DNA of 64,000 nucleotides from Parcubacteria group bacterium Gr01-1014_13 (GTDB taxonomy: Bacteria; Patescibacteriota; Patescibacteriia; Magasanikbacterales; GWA2-37-8). Shown piece after piece: positions 7,956-40,374 of this stretch (the first letter of the stretch is position 1; each line of letters begins with the position of its first letter). Where the stretch lies: positions 2,843 to 66,842 of the forward strand of contig VMGB01000002.1 in NCBI GenBank assembly GCA_007376295.1. Direction: 5' to 3'. A program made the translations under genes and the position numbers. The notes under the pieces are model-generated. The model was not told the origin of the DNA. It saw only the letters and a program-made list of their open reading frames with translations, and made no database searches.

Positions 7956-8027
7956 AACTTGTCAACTAGTTATTAAAACTTGTATACTAACTTATCAACT
8001 AAATTTATTAACTTGTATACTAACTTA
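7956..8027. repeat. iteron-like direct repeats (about 16-18 bp units, AACTTGTATACTAACTTA x2 exact plus 2 variants) in the divergent intergenic region
   Basis: Exact 18-bp copies at 7977..7994 and 8010..8027. Variants at 7956..7972 and 7990..8008. Each contains a GTATAC core. Confidence 0.6.
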
Positions 8028-8129
8028 GATACAAAGGGTGGTTAGGGCGGCATAAGCAAACGGACCCTTTTTGAATATTTACAAAATCAAACTAACAATA
8101 TAATATATTTCTACCCCAAAAGGAGCCAA

Positions 8130-8393
8130 ATGTCCCAGGCACCAAAACCACCAAACCCATTTGACCCAGTGGAAGAAACAAAAAAACCTCGTAGCCAGCC
8201 TGATCAATCTGAGGAAACCCAAATCTCCAATATGGTGAATGAGGGTGGACATGAACCATCTGATTCTGAAACAGTGGTTCAAAGGGCGTTAGAAACCTTC
8301 AAAAGACTAAACGAAGGTGGTCCAGCCCCCAACCTTGTCATCGAGACAGATGGCAACCATAGCTCTGCCAGATGGGAAACTCCCAAGAAGTAG
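8130..8393 (+). CDS. hydrophilic hypothetical protein (87 aa)
   Basis: RBS AAAGGAG 5 nt upstream of the ATG. Low-complexity acidic/Pro-rich sequence. Confidence 0.4.
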   Translation: MSQAPKPPNPFDPVEETKKPRSQPDQSEETQISNMVNEGGHEPSDSETVVQRALETFKRLNEGGPAPNLVIETDGNHSSARWETPKK

Positions 8394-8404
8394 CCACAAA
8401 ACTA

Positions 8405-8433
8405 TTGACAAAAACCAAGAAATAGGGTATTAT
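8405..8433 (+). promoter_or_regulatory. consensus promoter TTGACA-17-TATTAT driving the GC-rich unit A
   Basis: TTGACA 8405..8410, 17-nt spacer, TATTAT 8428..8433. Confidence 0.55.
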
Positions 8434-8439
8434 AAGCCC

Positions 8440-8705
8440 TGCCTAACGATCGCTCGTCTAGGCCTACGGCAACTTTGCCGGGAGAACAGGAGGCAACGTG
8501 AACAGTATCCGCGGACCGACGAACATCAACCATGCCAATCATAACGCGAACTCGATCTCGTTCAATCTCGGCTAGCTCGACCTCGTCGACGCCGGCTCCG
8601 GCCTTGGCACAATTCCTCATTCTGAGGAGCTGAGCGCCACGGCCCCCAACCCCAGGAGGGTGACAAAGTGTCTTCGGACACCGCGTCGCCCTCCTCTTTT
8701 ATTTC
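8440..8705 (+). ncRNA. GC-rich (about 58%) self-contained transcription unit A: candidate sRNA or short-ORF mRNA (26-aa ORF with AGGAGG-GTG at 8498..8575), unclassified
   Basis: Promoter upstream. Strong terminator GGAGGGTGAC...GTCGCCCTCC with an inner UUCG hairpin plus T-tract at 8655..8705. GC content far above the flanking DNA. Confidence 0.35.
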
Positions 8706-8762
8706 ACGCTACTTGCGTGCTTTTTTTATTATGCTACACTACACTGTGTAGTATTTATTTTT

Positions 8763-10206: not shown

Positions 10207-10254
10207 TTCTCTTCTACTACAATACGTAGTAGATATATAAATAATATAAAAATT

Positions 10255-10989
10255 ATGAAACTTCCGTTTCTAGAAAATAAAAAAAATGTTTTAAACTTGG
10301 TGCTATTGGGTCTACTCACAACTTCTATAGTGACCAACCAAACAGTTCTGGCTAATACTAAAAAAATAATTGGTGTAAATCATGGAGTTTTATCATCAAT
10401 CGGCTCAATTAAACTATTTAGCAACACAAAACTTACTGGTAACCTGTCAGAAGATGCCACTAAGATTTCATTTAAACAGGGCATACCCGAAAAATACGGC
10501 CCGGAATTAAATGTTAATTTTGACCAAGTACAGGGTGCTATAGACATTTTGAAACAATATGATCCTGGCTATGGCAGACAAAAAATTTCTTTGGCCGGCG
10601 AAGAAAAACAACGCTACATTAACGTCGGACGAAAAATATCCTGTGAATATTGCTGTGGAGTTGATGGTATTGTCTTTGCAAACGGAGAAGCCGCTTGTGG
10701 TTGCGCTCATTCCCAAGCAATGCGCGGTTTGGCAGCTTATTTAATAAAAAATCACGGCCCAGAATATACGGACGACCAAATTTTAAGAGAACTAGCCGCC
10801 TGGAAGGGTCGTTATTTCCCTAAACAAATGGTACAAAAAACCATGGACCAAATCCAAAGCGGTAAATATACTCCTGATATAGCCGCCCTGCTCTTAGATG
10901 TAAAGCTGCCAAAATATGGAGCAAATGACATCAAATCACCTGCGCCGTCTGACTTAGAAAATGCGCCAGGCATGGTGGGCGGATGTTAA
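10255..10989 (+). CDS. secreted Cys-rich protein ending in ...ENAPGMVGGC
   Basis: Signal peptide. Cys cluster CEYCCGVDG...ACGCAHS. The C-terminal nonapeptide is shared with the next ORF. Confidence 0.5.
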   Translation: MKLPFLENKKNVLNLVLLGLLTTSIVTNQTVLANTKKIIGVNHGVLSSIGSIKLFSNTKLTGNLSEDATKISFKQGIPEKYGPELNVNFDQVQGAIDILKQYDPGYGRQKISLAGEEKQRYINVGRKISCEYCCGVDGIVFANGEAACGCAHSQAMRGLAAYLIKNHGPEYTDDQILRELAAWKGRYFPKQMVQKTMDQIQSGKYTPDIAALLLDVKLPKYGANDIKSPAPSDLENAPGMVGGC

Positions 10990-11030: not shown

Positions 11031-11330
11031 ATGCACGACCACACAACAAATCAACAACCAATGCCGGAAAATAACACCCCTCACAACGAATTGGAAGCAA
11101 TAAAAAATGAAGTCACTGCTAAAATGGCAGAAACCAAGGATAAAAATTTACCTTGGGGAAATATTACTGTCACAGTTATTTTAGCAGCGCTTACGCTGAT
11201 GTCTGTGGGACAAACTGTAGAATCTGTTTATATCTTCAACAAACTAAAATCCGGCAATATTGGTCCATCGACTGGCGCGCCGCAGGCGAACTCACCACAG
11301 AACGCTCCGGACATGGTGGGTGGTTGCTAA
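11031..11330 (+). CDS. small membrane-anchored protein ending in ...QNAPDMVGGC
   Basis: One TM helix. Identical NAP-x-MVGGC C-terminal tail, but the body is unrelated to 10255..10989. Confidence 0.5.
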   Translation: MHDHTTNQQPMPENNTPHNELEAIKNEVTAKMAETKDKNLPWGNITVTVILAALTLMSVGQTVESVYIFNKLKSGNIGPSTGAPQANSPQNAPDMVGGC

Positions 11331-31379: not shown

Positions 31380-31660
31380 AAAGTTAACAACCTGGGGATA
31401 ACAAATGTATAAGTGTAAAAATTTATTAACTTTTCACACACTTACGAGATAAGTTATAAACACCAACTGAAAAAATAAATTTCTTTCCACACACTTTATA
31501 GATTTATCCTCAACAAGTTTTGCACTGATAAAAAAATAAAAAACGTTTAGATTACAGTAAAAAAATAGTTTTACCACCTTATCCACTCCATTATAGTTAC
31601 GATTATAATTTATAAATAAATATTTAGACAATATAACGATGCAAATAAAATGAATAAAAA
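31380..31660. promoter_or_regulatory. candidate oriC: AT-rich dnaA-dnaN spacer with at least 5 DnaA-box-like 9-mers and an A/T-rich unwinding tract
   Basis: Box matches: TTATCCCCA (reverse, 31393), TTATAAACA (31453), CTTTCCACA (31484), TTATCCTCA (31504), TTATCCACT (31578). An AT-run lies at 31530..31575. Confidence 0.5.
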
Positions 31661-31690
31661 ACCCGCTGGTTGGCGGGTAAGGTAACAAAT
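31660..31690 (-). terminator. intrinsic terminator of the GC-rich gene C
   Basis: CCCGCCAACCAGCGGG hairpin plus T-tract on the minus strand. Confidence 0.6.
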
Positions 31691-31707
31691 AACTAAATTG
31701 TGTGCTG

Positions 31708-32004
31708 CTAGCGGTGACGACCGTTGTTGACTCGCCAGTAGCTGGCGCCGCGACTCTCACGACGCAGATCGCCGTCGCGGAGCCTGGCATCCTTGCGGAG
31801 GCCGACGGTGCGCGGGGAGGTCTGAGGATTGAACTCCCTCAGGTAGATACCCCGTTCGGAGACGTCTTCCACGATGTTGTGGAAGTGGTCGTCCTCGATG
31901 TCTTCAATGAGCTTGAGGGTATGGTCGGGGATCCAGCGGAAGCGACGGTTGACCTGGAAGTTGCCTTCGGGGTCGGCGGACGCGATCATCGTATCCTGCA
32001 GCAT
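31708..32004 (-). CDS. GC-rich (about 60%, GC3-biased) foreign-looking gene for a 98-aa hydrophilic protein, inserted between dnaA and dnaN
   Basis: Codon usage (CTG/GAC/ATC/GCG) unlike the host. RBS AGGAAGG. Host-type consensus promoter and terminator. Confidence 0.55.
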   Translation of the reverse strand: MLQDTMIASADPEGNFQVNRRFRWIPDHTLKLIEDIEDDHFHNIVEDVSERGIYLREFNPQTSPRTVGLRKDARLRDGDLRRESRGASYWRVNNGRHR

Positions 32005-32056
32005 CTAGAGATCCTTCCTGTAAAAGTGTGGTTTTTAGCCAAAATGGCTGGAGCAG

Positions 32057-32085
32057 ATAATATCACAAAAACACGATTTTGTCAA
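32057..32085 (-). promoter_or_regulatory. consensus promoter TTGACA-17-TATTAT for gene C
   Basis: Minus-strand TTGACA 32080..32085, TATTAT 32057..32062. Confidence 0.6.
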
Positions 32086-32107
32086 TATATAACAATAATC
32101 TACCTAT

Positions 32108-39861: not shown

Positions 39862-40212
39862 AGCAAATTAATTATAAAAGGCGATCACCTTCTACCTCAA
39901 TTTTTAAATTGATACAGAAGGCGGATCGCCTTTGAAGATATTACTAAGGGGAGGTACTTTCTCCCTCTTAAGGAGAACTTGTACGCTACCTACCTCTGGT
40001 AATATTGAAATTTTGACCCTAACCGCTTGTGGGTAGAGCCCCAGTGTTAAAGTGACCCGAGGGTATTTAACTAATTTAGGGTTACCCGGGAAGAAGTTGG
40101 GCACGCCATTGCTTTTTTTCTATGTAAAGCAGTTGTTTGCCCAGTTCTAAATTGCAGTTTATAGGTCATTTGTATACAGAAGTGTATACATTTGAATTGT
40201 AGAATGAACTAC
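39862..40212 (-). ncRNA. candidate structured ncRNA of about 340 nt (unit E), unclassified
   Basis: Perfect TTGACA-17-TATAAT promoter at 40219..40247 on the minus strand. A 17-bp-stem terminator hairpin at 39877..39934 is followed by a U-rich tract. Multiple internal hairpins. The only ORF (GTG start, no RBS, Pro-rich) is unconvincing. Confidence 0.4.
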
Positions 40213-40374
40213 AAAGATATTATAGCATTTTTTTCACCCTTTGTCAACTATTTGTATACACTAGTATATACAAATATATTTTAGCTGTAATTAGCTAAAA
40301 TTTCCACAGTTTATCCACATTCCCTATAGGTTATACCCAAAGTTATCCACAGTTGTATACACTAGTGTATACAA
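40171..40374. promoter_or_regulatory. regulatory hub: three paired palindromic TGTATACA operators (40171..40190, 40253..40272, 40353..40374) and two perfect DnaA boxes TTATCCACA (40311..40319, 40343..40351) plus weaker boxes
   Basis: Each operator is two self-complementary 8-mers separated by 4 nt (TTGTATACActagTGTATACAA is a perfect 22-bp palindrome). The boxes lie in the same orientation between divergent promoters. Confidence 0.6.
40219..40247 (-). promoter_or_regulatory. perfect consensus promoter TTGACA-17-TATAAT for unit E
   Basis: Minus-strand TTGACA 40242..40247, TATAAT 40219..40224. Confidence 0.6.

What the first reader, a model, noticed from the sequence alone, without database searches (positions are those of the whole stretch)
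8400..8705. GC-rich mini transcription unit A (promoter, about 260 nt, strong terminator) between the HTH-ATPase gene and blaI
TTGACA-17-TATTAT at 8405..8433 is followed by about 260 nt at roughly 58% GC in a roughly 37% GC context. The unit ends at a 10-bp G/C stem enclosing a UUCG-capped inner hairpin plus a U-tract (8655..8705). Inside is a 26-codon ORF with a perfect AGGAGG-N4-GTG (MNSIRGPTNINHANHNANSISFNLG) and GC3-rich codons. The same frame continues GC3-rich after the TAG, which may mean a decayed longer gene. Alternatively the unit is an sRNA. It is one of four similarly built GC-rich units in this window (A at 8.4 kb, B at 17.3 kb, C at 31.8 kb, D/LuxR at 53.7 kb).
Basis: seen in the sequence. 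Interest (0 to 1): 0.6.

Follow-up and report, generated by a model that had tools for sequence, protein, structure and literature searches.

The report
Conserved GC-rich micro-gene cassette upstream of blaI
The GC-rich stretch is a real, self-contained mini gene, conserved in related groundwater Parcubacteria, that makes a structured RNA of about 270 nt carrying a 25-codon reading frame that appears to be translated; its role is unknown and it matches no described RNA or protein family.

Summary
A near-consensus promoter (8405-8433) is followed by about 265 nt at 58% GC in 33-35% GC flanks. There is an AGGAGG-N4-GTG 25-codon ORF (8498-8575), then a UUCG-capped 11+5 bp hairpin with a U-tract (8654-8704).

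The unit is not chance and not a decayed gene. It lies between an 87-aa ORF and blaI in at least 9 distinct related metagenomic loci, twice in tandem in one of them, and is absent in one. Three hairpins covary (12 of 28 pairs compensatory; 0 of 500 shuffles reach this).

The small ORF behaves as coding:
- the SD is kept;
- the start switches ATG/GTG;
- in codons 4-8 (IRGPT) all four variable sites are synonymous third positions;
- GC3 is 0.71-0.95 in every member, against 0.37 for the window's genes.

No Rfam family matches. A read-through product has no homologue. No conserved antiterminator was found, and the unit carries no BlaI operator.

Modules are mosaic between genomes, while promoter and 3' hairpin are conserved. 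Magasanikbacteria-type relatives carry arrays of other GC-rich mini genes at the same site.

Best reading: an autonomous, moron-like micro-gene, meaning a stable small mRNA for a hydrophilic peptide that may also act as an RNA. Units B, C and D share the layout but are unrelated in sequence.

The parts
8405..8433 (+). Sigma-70-type promoter: -35 TTGACA at 8405-8410, 17-nt spacer, -10 TATTAT at 8428-8433. Start of transcription inferred near 8440.
   Evidence: 11 of 12 matches. TTGACA and TAnnAT are kept in all homologues and spacer positions are also conserved. The promoter module is 72-97% identical across members. The same promoter type, TTGACA-N13-AGnGTAnnAT, occurs 4 times in the window against 0.1 expected.
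8441..8463 (+). 5'-terminal stem-loop H0 (9 pairs), beginning about 1 nt after the inferred transcription start.
   Evidence: MFE folds. L003, L005 and L006 form a hairpin at the same place with different sequences (CUAGCGA/UCGCUAG; CAAAGC/GCUUUG). It is absent in L004, L007, L045 and L012.
8467..8480 (+). 5'-UTR stem-loop H1 (CGGCAA CU UUGCCG), 8 nt upstream of the SD.
   Evidence: RNAalifold helix 1. Four of 6 pairs show changes on both sides (CGGC/GCCG, CCGC/GCGG, CAGC/GCUG, UGGC/GCCA), and 96% of cells are paired.
8488..8493 (+). Shine-Dalgarno sequence AGGAGG, 4 nt before the GTG.
   Evidence: GGAG is invariant in the 9 aligned members.
8498..8575 (+). Small ORF: GTG start, 25 codons (MNSIRGPTNINHANHNANSISFNLG), TAG stop.
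   Evidence: Starts alternate ATG and GTG. In codons 4-8 of the 7 IRGPT members, all four variable sites are synonymous third positions. The FNLG motif is shared with L012b, L004 and L007. GC3 is 0.71-0.95 in all members. The codons are minority codons for this genome.
8576..8653 (+). 3' UTR body, including the conserved hairpin Hb (8613-8629, UUCCUCA UUC UGAGGAG) and a C-rich tract (8643-8653).
   Evidence: RNAalifold helix 2, with 4 of 6 pairs changed on both sides. This module is 79-85% identical to L005 and L006 but 44-53% identical to the others.
8654..8704 (+). Long 3' hairpin (11-bp outer stem, AAA/CGC internal loop, 5-bp inner stem, UUCG loop) plus the U-tract CUUUUAUUU. Acts as an intrinsic terminator and 3' stabiliser.
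   Evidence: helices 3 and 4: 98-100% of cells paired, 4 pairs with compensatory change. The module is 69-95% identical in all members. The U-tract is present in window, L003-L006 and L054, but not in L007, L012 or L068.
8705..8727 (+). Second, small terminator: CACGC UACUU GCGUG, C, then U7. Its 3' half carries the -35 (TTGCGT, 8713-8718) of the blaI promoter.
   Evidence: It is present after every cassette, including the internal ones of the L068 array and L012. In L011 it directly follows the 87-aa-ORF homologue, with no unit A.
8130..8393 (+). Context: the 87-aa acidic ORF immediately upstream. It has no terminator of its own, so its transcript should run into unit A.
   Evidence: Homologues precede the unit in all loci. 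No Pfam match. The family is small, with 20 hits in 1.8 billion representatives.

Best explanation
Unit A is an autonomous micro-gene, a member of a lineage-specific family of GC-rich expression cassettes in Magasanikbacteria-related Parcubacteria.

Proposed mechanism:
1. A strong constitutive sigma-70-type promoter starts an RNA near 8440.
2. One or two 5' stem-loops and a very stable UUCG-capped 3' hairpin bracket the RNA. These should protect it from exonucleases and, together with the U-tract and a back-up terminator, end transcription before the separately regulated blaI promoter.
3. A canonical SD drives translation of a 25-codon ORF. The product is a hydrophilic peptide with a conserved N-terminal MNxIRGPT motif, a conserved FNLG motif and a variable middle.

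The cassette is moron-like: promoter, payload and terminator with deviant base composition, present in some genomes and absent in one. Its modules are reshuffled between genomes.

Shown: the sequence signals, their conservation, covariation of three hairpins, and a coding-type substitution pattern. Inferred: that transcription and translation actually occur, that the hairpins stabilise the RNA, and that the peptide is the main product. The cellular role of the peptide is unknown.
For: - Conservation: the unit lies between the 87-aa ORF and blaI in window, L003-L007, L012 (two tandem copies), L045 and L054, with a divergent copy in L068.
- Translation signals: SD invariant; start codon ATG or GTG; codons 4-8 vary only at synonymous third positions (4 of 4 variable sites, hypergeometric P about 0.004 by my count); L004 and L007 differ by 3 synonymous and 2 non-synonymous changes.
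- Strand: the same substitutions would be non-synonymous in the minus-strand shadow ORF.
- Codon periodicity: GC3 is 0.71-0.95 in all 10 sORFs, but there is no periodicity in most 3' UTRs.
- Structure: three hairpins, 96.4% of cells paired, 12 of 28 pairs with compensatory change, 0 of 500 shuffles as good, slid controls 44-63% paired.
- Cassette behaviour: L011 lacks the unit; L012 has two copies; module identities are mosaic, while promoter and hairpin are conserved.
- Unit similarity does not track BlaI identity.
- No BlaI operator lies in the unit. The operators are at 8737-8753 and 10215-10231.
- No Rfam family matches in the window or in 12 related loci.
Against: - No expression data of any kind; transcription and translation are inferred from sequence.
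- Only about 9-10 distinct members, several of them closely related, so both the covariation and the synonymous-site arguments rest on few independent events.
- The peptide is tiny, has no recognisable fold, signal or known motif, and its middle part is poorly conserved (window versus L012b: 5 synonymous against 7 non-synonymous codon differences).
- GC3 far above the genomic level at synonymous sites implies selection on the RNA itself, or some other process that a pure 'peptide gene' model does not explain.
- The big hairpin is more conserved in sequence (69-95%) than a terminator needs to be.
Confidence: 0.6

Rival explanations
1. The RNA is the main effector, as a regulatory or dual-function sRNA. 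The 3' domain (hairpin Hb, the C-rich tract and the SD/anti-SD-like long hairpin) would act in trans on mRNAs or bind a protein. The sORF would be secondary, for example stabilising the RNA through ribosome loading.
For: - Covarying hairpins.
- GC-rich synonymous sites maintained against a genomic GC3 of 0.37.
- The big hairpin is 69-95% identical across members, more than the sORF at 45-90%.
- A C-rich single-stranded tract lies just 5' of the terminator.
- Own promoter and terminator, and no downstream ORF in the unit.
Against: - No target or complementarity was tested or found.
- The 3'-UTR body is the least conserved module between subfamilies (44-60%).
- The SD, the start codon and the synonymous-only variation in IRGPT are hard to explain without translation.
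- No Rfam family matches.
Confidence: 0.2
2. It is a cis-acting leader of the blaI-blaR operon. Translation, or stalling at IRGP, of the leader peptide would decide whether transcription from the strong promoter stops at the hairpin or reads into blaI. Alternatively the unit merely insulates or feeds the blaI promoter.
For: - Every member found lies upstream of blaI, including loci from the context-blind DNA pattern scan.
- The position is kept even where BlaI is only 53% identical.
- The back-up terminator overlaps the blaI -35.
- IRGP loosely resembles the SecM arrest core IRAGP (my own knowledge).
Against: - blaI has its own promoter and operator immediately after the unit, and keeps them in L011, which lacks the unit.
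- Two or more complete units, each with its own promoter and terminators, stand in tandem in L012 and L068.
- There are two successive terminators.
- No consistent alternative partner exists for the 5' arm of the terminator in 10 homologues.
- The stop codon lies 77-139 nt before the hairpin.
- The leader has no run of one regulatory amino acid.
Confidence: 0.08
3. It is the decayed remnant of a longer, horizontally acquired GC-rich gene. The TAG at 8573 would be a disabling mutation and the unit would be on its way to loss.
For: - GC3-type periodicity continues after the TAG in the window (0.69/0.57/0.79 for 8576-8660) and in L045.
- The spacing between the TAG and the GGCACAAUUCC block is a multiple of 3 in window, L005 and L006 (30, 36 and 30 nt; my count).
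Against: - The same short ORF with the same stop context is kept in four diverged loci, and other subfamilies stop at other conserved sites.
- Most 3' UTRs show no periodicity.
- The extended frame has no stop before the terminator, and its frame is not conserved across the hairpin (my reading).
- No homologue of the read-through product exists.
- Promoter, SD and hairpins are under selection.
Confidence: 0.05
4. The real gene is the 72-aa ORF on the minus strand (8620-8402).
For: It is an open frame of 72 codons with GC1 0.74.
Against: - It is the expected shadow frame of a GC3-rich plus-strand sequence.
- It has no SD and no promoter, and it runs through the plus-strand promoter.
- The terminator is unidirectional for the + strand.
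- The conserved third-position changes of the plus frame fall on its first codon positions.
- No Pfam match.
Confidence: 0.02

Closest known systems
Dual-function sRNAs / small mRNAs with a translated sORF (B. subtilis SR1/SR1P, S. aureus RNAIII/delta-haemolysin, E. coli SgrS/SgrT, AzuCR)
   Same: An independent promoter-to-terminator unit of about 200-500 nt. A structured RNA with a short SD-led ORF of 20-45 codons. No further gene in the transcript.
   Different: No sequence or Rfam relationship. No base-pairing target is known. The base composition is unusual (58% GC, GC3 0.77 in a 40% GC genome). The family is modular, tandemly duplicated and mosaic.
Phage 'morons' (autonomous promoter-ORF-terminator inserts with deviant base composition; Hendrix/Juhala concept, from my own knowledge)
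   Same: A self-contained promoter, small ORF and factor-independent terminator. GC content differs sharply from the neighbours. The insert lies between two genes that are adjacent in a relative (L011).
   Different: The context is a core chromosomal region (rpsT, holA, polA nearby), not a prophage. No match was found in phage or viral collections apart from a promoter-only hit and one chance hit. The family is vertically persistent at one locus.
Leader-peptide transcription attenuators (trpL, ermCL; S. meliloti rnTrpL/peTrpL)
   Same: A short SD-led ORF followed by an intrinsic terminator upstream of an operon. The released attenuator RNA and peptide can act in trans in the S. meliloti case (PMC7298713, PMC7968998, abstracts seen).
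   Different: The downstream operon has a separate promoter and operator. No antiterminator was found. Tandem complete copies exist. The operon exists without the unit.
Ribosome arrest peptides of the SecM (IRAGP) and RAPP type
   Same: An R-G-P / R-G-R-P core near a proline, conserved at the amino-acid level.
   Different: The motif sits at residues 4-7 of a 19-29-aa peptide, not at the C-terminal end of a longer exported protein. There is no N-terminal export signal (GRAVY -0.5 to -1.6). There is no sec or yidC gene downstream.
Tandem RiPP or bacteriocin precursor genes
   Same: Short peptides with a conserved N-terminus and a variable C-terminal part, sometimes in tandem, evolving fast.
   Different: The conserved N-terminal part is only about 8 residues. 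No modifying enzyme, C39 peptidase or exporter was recognised among the neighbours examined by Pfam. No Cys pattern is present.

Membership tests
Any Rfam RNA family | Match to a curated covariance model at or near its gathering score | tested here: not met
   Window at gathering thresholds gave only 5 tRNAs. Region 8350-8760 at E<=10 gave only noise of 9.7-12.5 bits against thresholds of 50-75. Twelve homologous loci gave no match.
Dual-function sRNA | Independent transcription unit (own promoter and intrinsic terminator, no other gene in it) | tested here: met
   Met at the sequence level only. The promoter scores 11 of 12, and a hairpin with U-tract plus a second terminator follow. All are conserved in homologues. 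No transcript data.
Dual-function sRNA | The small ORF is translated | tested here: inconclusive
   Comparative signature only: invariant SD, ATG/GTG switching, synonymous-only variation in IRGPT codons, GC3 periodicity confined to the ORF. No Ribo-seq or proteomics.
Dual-function sRNA | The RNA regulates targets by base pairing | not tested
   No target search was run. Covarying hairpins show structure, not function.
Leader-peptide transcription attenuator | Lies in the 5' leader of the regulated operon, which has no promoter of its own in between | tested here: not met
   The blaI promoter (TTGCGT-16-TACACT) and operator (8737-8753) follow the unit. L011 has them without the unit.
Leader-peptide transcription attenuator | Conserved mutually exclusive terminator and antiterminator structures | tested here: not met
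   Folds of transcripts truncated before the 3' arm show no consistent partner for the 5' arm in 10 homologues. RNAalifold finds only three simple hairpins.
Leader-peptide transcription attenuator | Run of codons for the sensed amino acid, or a defined drug-dependent stall site | tested here: inconclusive
   No shared run exists: Asn-rich in window and L012b, Ser/Thr/His-rich in L005 and L006, Thr/Ala-rich in L003. Stalling at IRGP is not testable here.
SecM/RAPP-type arrest peptide | C-terminal arrest motif in an exported or membrane-targeted ORF upstream of a protein-localisation gene | tested here: not met
   The motif is at residues 4-7, the peptides are hydrophilic, and the downstream genes are blaI and blaR.
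Type I toxin-antitoxin | Small hydrophobic membrane toxin plus an overlapping antisense RNA | tested here: not met
   GRAVY is -0.46 to -1.57, with no hydrophobic 9-residue window above 0.5. The only minus-strand promoter-like hit inside the unit is weak, 9 of 12 at 8565-8538.
Phage moron | Promoter-ORF-terminator insert of deviant composition between genes that are adjacent in a relative | tested here: met
Phage moron | Located in a phage or prophage genome | tested here: not met
   The neighbours are rpsT, holA, blaI/blaR and polA. There is no full-length similarity in the phage, plasmid or viral collections searched.
Integron gene cassette | Promoterless ORF followed by an attC site, in an array next to an intI integrase | tested here: not met
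   Each unit has its own consensus promoter. No integrase appears among the called genes within about 7 kb. No RYYYAAC/GTTRRRY core was seen in the hairpin, judged by reading.
RiPP precursor array | Adjacent maturation enzymes or a dedicated exporter | tested here: not met
   Pfam on the neighbours gives only HATPase/DUF4325, Penicillinase_R, M56 peptidase, thioredoxin-like domains and unknowns.

The most novel reading that the evidence does not exclude
The unit could belong to a previously undescribed class of exchangeable GC-rich micro-gene cassettes in Magasanikbacteria-type CPR bacteria. Such cassettes would have conserved expression ends (promoter, 5' hairpin, GGCGAC...GUCGCC 3' hairpin, small terminator) flanking rapidly replaced payloads of 19-100 codons. 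They would be held at one chromosomal site next to the blaI-blaR module. Their G/C-rich synonymous sites would be maintained by selection on the RNA, so each cassette would be a bifunctional RNA and peptide. These could be diversifying molecules used in interaction with hosts or competitors.
Probability: 0.2. Interest if true: 0.7.

Novelty: new member of a known kind. Interest (0 to 1): 0.5.

Why it matters
CPR/Patescibacteria genomes are small, uncultivated and full of unannotated space. Almost nothing is known about their small RNAs and micro-proteins.

This unit is invisible to gene callers (25 codons) and to Rfam, yet it carries the strongest expression signals in its neighbourhood and is conserved with coding-type and structure-type constraints.

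The wider pattern poses a concrete compositional puzzle: 58-77% GC mini genes with native AT-rich promoters, arrayed at one locus in 38-43% GC genomes and reshuffled between lineages. What keeps synonymous sites GC-rich?

It also gives a tractable target for metatranscriptomics, metaproteomics or heterologous expression. If the function turns out to be mundane, the value is mainly better annotation of small genes in this phylum.

Tried and rejected
- Rfam at gathering and at permissive thresholds, on the window and on 12 related loci: nothing.
- blastn against phages: only a 39-nt promoter-like hit to Enterococcus phage promoters. Against plasmids: nothing.
- Pfam on the minus-strand 72-aa ORF, the post-stop frame and the 87-aa ORF: nothing.
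- Self-similarity of unit A inside the window, to test whether the four units are paralogues: none.
- Read-through or pseudogene hypothesis: no homologue of the fused product.
- Viral reservoir for the cassette: one chance hit in a 61% GC contig, no homology.
- Antiterminator search: no conserved partner.
- Profile search with the 87-aa family: 20 hits. The top long proteins are tandem-repeat artefacts (P0010), with no functional lead.
- Homologues of the unit C protein, to test horizontal transfer from GC-rich organisms: only two, both metagenomic orphans.
- Literature searches for CPR small RNAs, sORFs or Magasanikbacteria: nothing describing such units.
- Considered and dropped without dedicated tests:
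  - diversity-generating retroelement template/variable repeat, because the window has no second copy;
  - integron cassettes;
  - lasso-peptide resemblance (GTPISFYG of microcin J25 versus GPTISFNLG), which I judged coincidental.
- Most of the 51 metagenome pattern hits were chance matches to the hairpin motif. Only L012, L019, L045, L050 and L054 were true.

Full report
**Where the window comes from.** The proteins flanking the finding occur on a 159.6-kb metagenomic contig. NCBI names the 87-aa neighbour as a hypothetical protein of 'Parcubacteria group bacterium Gr01-1014_13'. The closest BlaI proteins among GTDB species representatives (68-73% identity) are in Magasanikbacteria-type MAGs. 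The window is 39.7% GC.

**Observation.**
- Promoter: TTGACA-17-TATTAT at 8405-8433, 11 of 12 matches.
- Composition: 8440-8705 is 58.3% GC, against 33-35% in the flanks.
- ORF: AGGAGG (8488-8493), CAAC, then GTG at 8498 opens a 25-codon ORF ending in TAG at 8573-8575.
- Hairpin: an 11-bp G/C-rich stem (8654-8664 / 8685-8695) encloses a 5-bp stem capped by UUCG and is followed by CUUUUAUUU.
- Codon-position GC: in the ORF frame it is 0.54/0.51/0.75 over 8441-8660, and GC3 is still 0.79 after the stop.

Two points were missed. The left neighbour is an 87-aa ORF on the same strand (8130-8393) with no terminator of its own. A second small terminator, CACGCUACUUGCGUG plus U7 at 8705-8727, follows the big hairpin and overlaps the -35 of the blaI promoter.

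**No known family.** Rfam gives nothing at curated thresholds for the window. At E<=10 for 8350-8760 it gives only noise. The homologous loci give nothing either. Phage and plasmid collections give only a 39-nt promoter look-alike.

**Conservation.** The 87-aa ORF has six homologues at 46-61% identity. On every contig long enough to judge, the order is small ORF, a gap of 357-415 nt, blaI, then a blaR-like M56 peptidase.
- Aligning the gaps shows unit A is conserved from the promoter through the SD, the start codon and the first eight codons, to a hairpin in the 3' UTR and the long UUCG hairpin.
- A context-blind scan of metagenome contigs for the hairpin motif returned 51 loci. Profile search showed five to be true members: L012, L045, L054, and duplicates L019 and L050. 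All lie next to blaI.
- L012 carries two complete units in tandem.
- L011 carries none. There the small-ORF homologue is followed directly by the small terminator and the blaI promoter and operator.
- There is only one copy in the window.

**Is the short ORF translated?** The ten sORFs are listed.

| Locus | Peptide |
|---|---|
| window | MNSIRGPTNINHANHNANSISFNLG |
| L012b | MKSIRGPTNTNQANENANFLNFNLG |
| L004 | MNTIRGPTISFNLGTRHAN |
| L007 | MNTIRGPTINFNLGARHAN |
| L005 | MNTIRGPTQYTSPLNHSSHSSTHTG |
| L006 | MHTIRGPTCKLSPFNHSSSTSTDGG |
| L045 | MNQIRGPTTSNKAKNNATSHSDAAAAT |
| L003 | MKQANGPNTSTETNLCKNATTTTDAAAAT |
| L012a | MKQTNGPNNGSTETVIAQN |
| L068u2 | MKNHSATNPRGRPNKNMQLFRADKMMLDNDDGNNS |

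- GGAG of the SD is invariant. The start codon is ATG in five of the ten sORFs (four of the nine aligned members) and GTG in five.
- In the seven IRGPT members, codons 4-8 vary at four sites: CGC/CGT, GGA/GGT, CCG/CCC and ACG/ACT. All are third positions and all are synonymous. By my count the chance of this is about 0.004.
- The same changes would hit first codon positions of the 72-aa minus-strand ORF. That ORF is therefore a shadow frame.
- L004 and L007 differ by three synonymous and two non-synonymous changes.
- A second motif, FNLG, is shared by window, L012b, L004 and L007.
- GC3 is 0.71-0.95 in every sORF, while most 3' UTRs show no periodicity.
- The stop is at the same place (GGC TAG C) in window, L005, L006 and L012b.
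- A hypothetical read-through product has no homologue among 5.8 billion proteins.

I conclude that the ORF is a genuine, selected coding frame and not the stump of a longer gene. The peptides are hydrophilic, with no membrane or signal segment.

**RNA structure.** RNAalifold on nine members finds three conserved hairpins: H1 in the 5' UTR, Hb in the 3' UTR, and the long 3' hairpin.
- On this structure 96.4% of cells form standard pairs, and 12 of 28 pairs show changes on both sides.
- None of 500 shuffles reaches the observed values.
- Slid controls give 44-63% pairing.
- Window, L003, L005 and L006 have an additional 5'-terminal hairpin of unrelated sequence at the same position.
- The U-tract after the long hairpin is present in window, L003-L006 and L054 but missing in L007, L012 and L068. 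There the small hairpin plus U7 must terminate.

So the long hairpin is a conserved element in its own right, 69-95% identical across members, not merely a terminator.

**Not an attenuator of blaI, as far as can be tested.**
- blaI has its own promoter (TTGCGT-16-TACACT) and a palindromic operator at 8737-8753. A second operator sits at 10215-10231, before the next operon.
- Unit A has no operator.
- The promoter and operator persist in L011 without the unit.
- Complete units stand in tandem.
- The sORF stop lies 77-139 nt before the hairpin.
- Folds of transcripts truncated before the 3' arm show no consistent alternative partner for the 5' arm.

**Cassette behaviour and the wider pattern.** Identity by module is mosaic. 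The window's 5' UTR is closest to L003 (75%), its sORF to L012b (78%), and its 3' UTR to L006 and L005 (85% and 79%). The promoter (72-97%) and the long hairpin are conserved in all members.

Unit similarity does not follow BlaI similarity. BlaI is 92-98% identical to L012, L003, L045, L004 and L007, but their units are only 72-80% identical to unit A. BlaI is 53-54% identical to L005 and L006, yet those units are 79% identical.

In the six closest GTDB relatives, the region upstream of blaI holds one to four mini genes at 58-77% GC in 38-43% GC genomes. Most have a TTGACAAAA-type promoter, an SD, an ORF of 23-98 codons, a long GC hairpin (often GGCGAC...GUCGCC) and the small terminator.
- Two of the L068 sORFs contain RGRP, an AT-hook-like core. 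I note this only as a resemblance.
- More distant Patescibacteria with BlaI homologues have no such islands.
- The sORF codons are minority codons for this genome. Mean GC3 of 42 long ORFs is 0.37.
- No GC-rich donor was found. The unit C protein, with the same layout, has only two homologues anywhere, and the viral scans were empty.

GC-rich third positions kept over this divergence point to selection on the RNA, or to some exchange process, in addition to peptide coding. I cannot say which.

**The other 'units'.**
- B (17.16-17.50 kb, - strand) has the same promoter type and encodes a 59-aa protein with a C-terminal hydrophobic helix.
- C is a 98-aa orphan ORF on the - strand with GC3 0.79.
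- D is a GerE/LuxR-type HTH protein.

All are small genes with strong signals and raised GC, but they are not related to A.

**Interpretation.** The best-supported reading (0.6) is an autonomous, moron-like micro-gene. A constitutive promoter produces an RNA of about 265-290 nt bracketed by stabilising hairpins. An SD-led 25-codon ORF on that RNA is translated into a hydrophilic peptide with conserved MNxIRGPT and FNLG motifs.

The main rival (0.2) is that the RNA itself is the effector, as a dual-function sRNA. A cis-acting role at blaI (0.08), a decayed gene (0.05) and the minus-strand ORF (0.02) are less likely.

No step of expression has been observed, and the family is still small, with about ten distinct members. 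The function of the peptide or RNA is unknown.

Noticed in passing
window 39950-40250 (- strand); L045:3090-3450; L004:444-797: An ORF-poor stretch lies behind a promoter (TTGACAAAGGGTGAAAAAAATGCTATAAT) flanked by TGTATACA palindromes. It is 85% identical over 210 nt to L045 and 90% identical to L004, where it sits just upstream of the 87-aa-ORF homologue. The L045 copy folds with z = -7.8. No Rfam, tRNA or tmRNA match. It is a candidate unknown structured RNA.
   Followed up: partly
window 7978-7995 and 8011-8028; also 40180-40370; L045:3030-3135: Repeated TGTATAC(A/T) motifs (AACTTGTATACTAACTTA twice) lie in the divergent promoter region between the HTH-ATPase/holA operon and the 87-aa ORF. 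The same motif surrounds other promoters. It looks like the operator of an unidentified regulator.
   Followed up: no
window 8737-8753 and 10215-10231: Two BlaI-type palindromic operators (TACTACA-N3-TGTAGTA, one mismatch each) overlap the -10 regions of the blaI promoter and of the promoter of the next operon. Equivalent TACTACAAT -10 boxes occur downstream of blaR in L045, L063-L065 and L068.
   Followed up: partly
window 10255-10989 and 11031-11330: Two proteins encoded downstream of blaR (244 aa and 99 aa) both end in ...AP(G/D)MVGGC. Neither has a Pfam match. They are followed by a double thioredoxin-like protein (CPDC, CTQC) and a membrane protein with CPTCG. This may be a shared C-terminal processing or metal-binding motif.
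   Followed up: no
window 31640-32100 (- strand): Unit C is a 98-aa ORF (31708-32004) with GC3 0.79, a consensus promoter with extended -10, a 5' hairpin, an SD and a terminator. It has only two homologues in 5.8 billion proteins and no Pfam match. It is a GC-rich orphan mini gene with the same layout as unit A.
   Followed up: partly
L068:850-2820; L063:2330-2960; L065:2380-2800; L066 and L067:2030-2940: Arrays of one to four mini genes at 58-77% GC lie directly upstream of blaI in Magasanikbacteria-type MAGs. The ORFs have 23-98 codons and encode hydrophilic products. L063 and L068 unit 4 share a DASLH(I/R)SS motif. L067 and L068 carry GC-rich versions of the 87-aa ORF.
   Followed up: partly
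window 8397-8435: The unit A promoter, including its spacer, is 90% identical over 39 nt to repeated intergenic promoters of Enterococcus phages of the EF24C group. This is probably convergence on a strong promoter and extended -10 consensus.
   Followed up: no
L012:381-420 and 714-754: The two tandem units of L012 have almost identical promoters and first 5'-UTR bases (97%) but different sORFs and 3' UTRs. This suggests gene conversion or recombination at the conserved cassette ends.
   Followed up: partly
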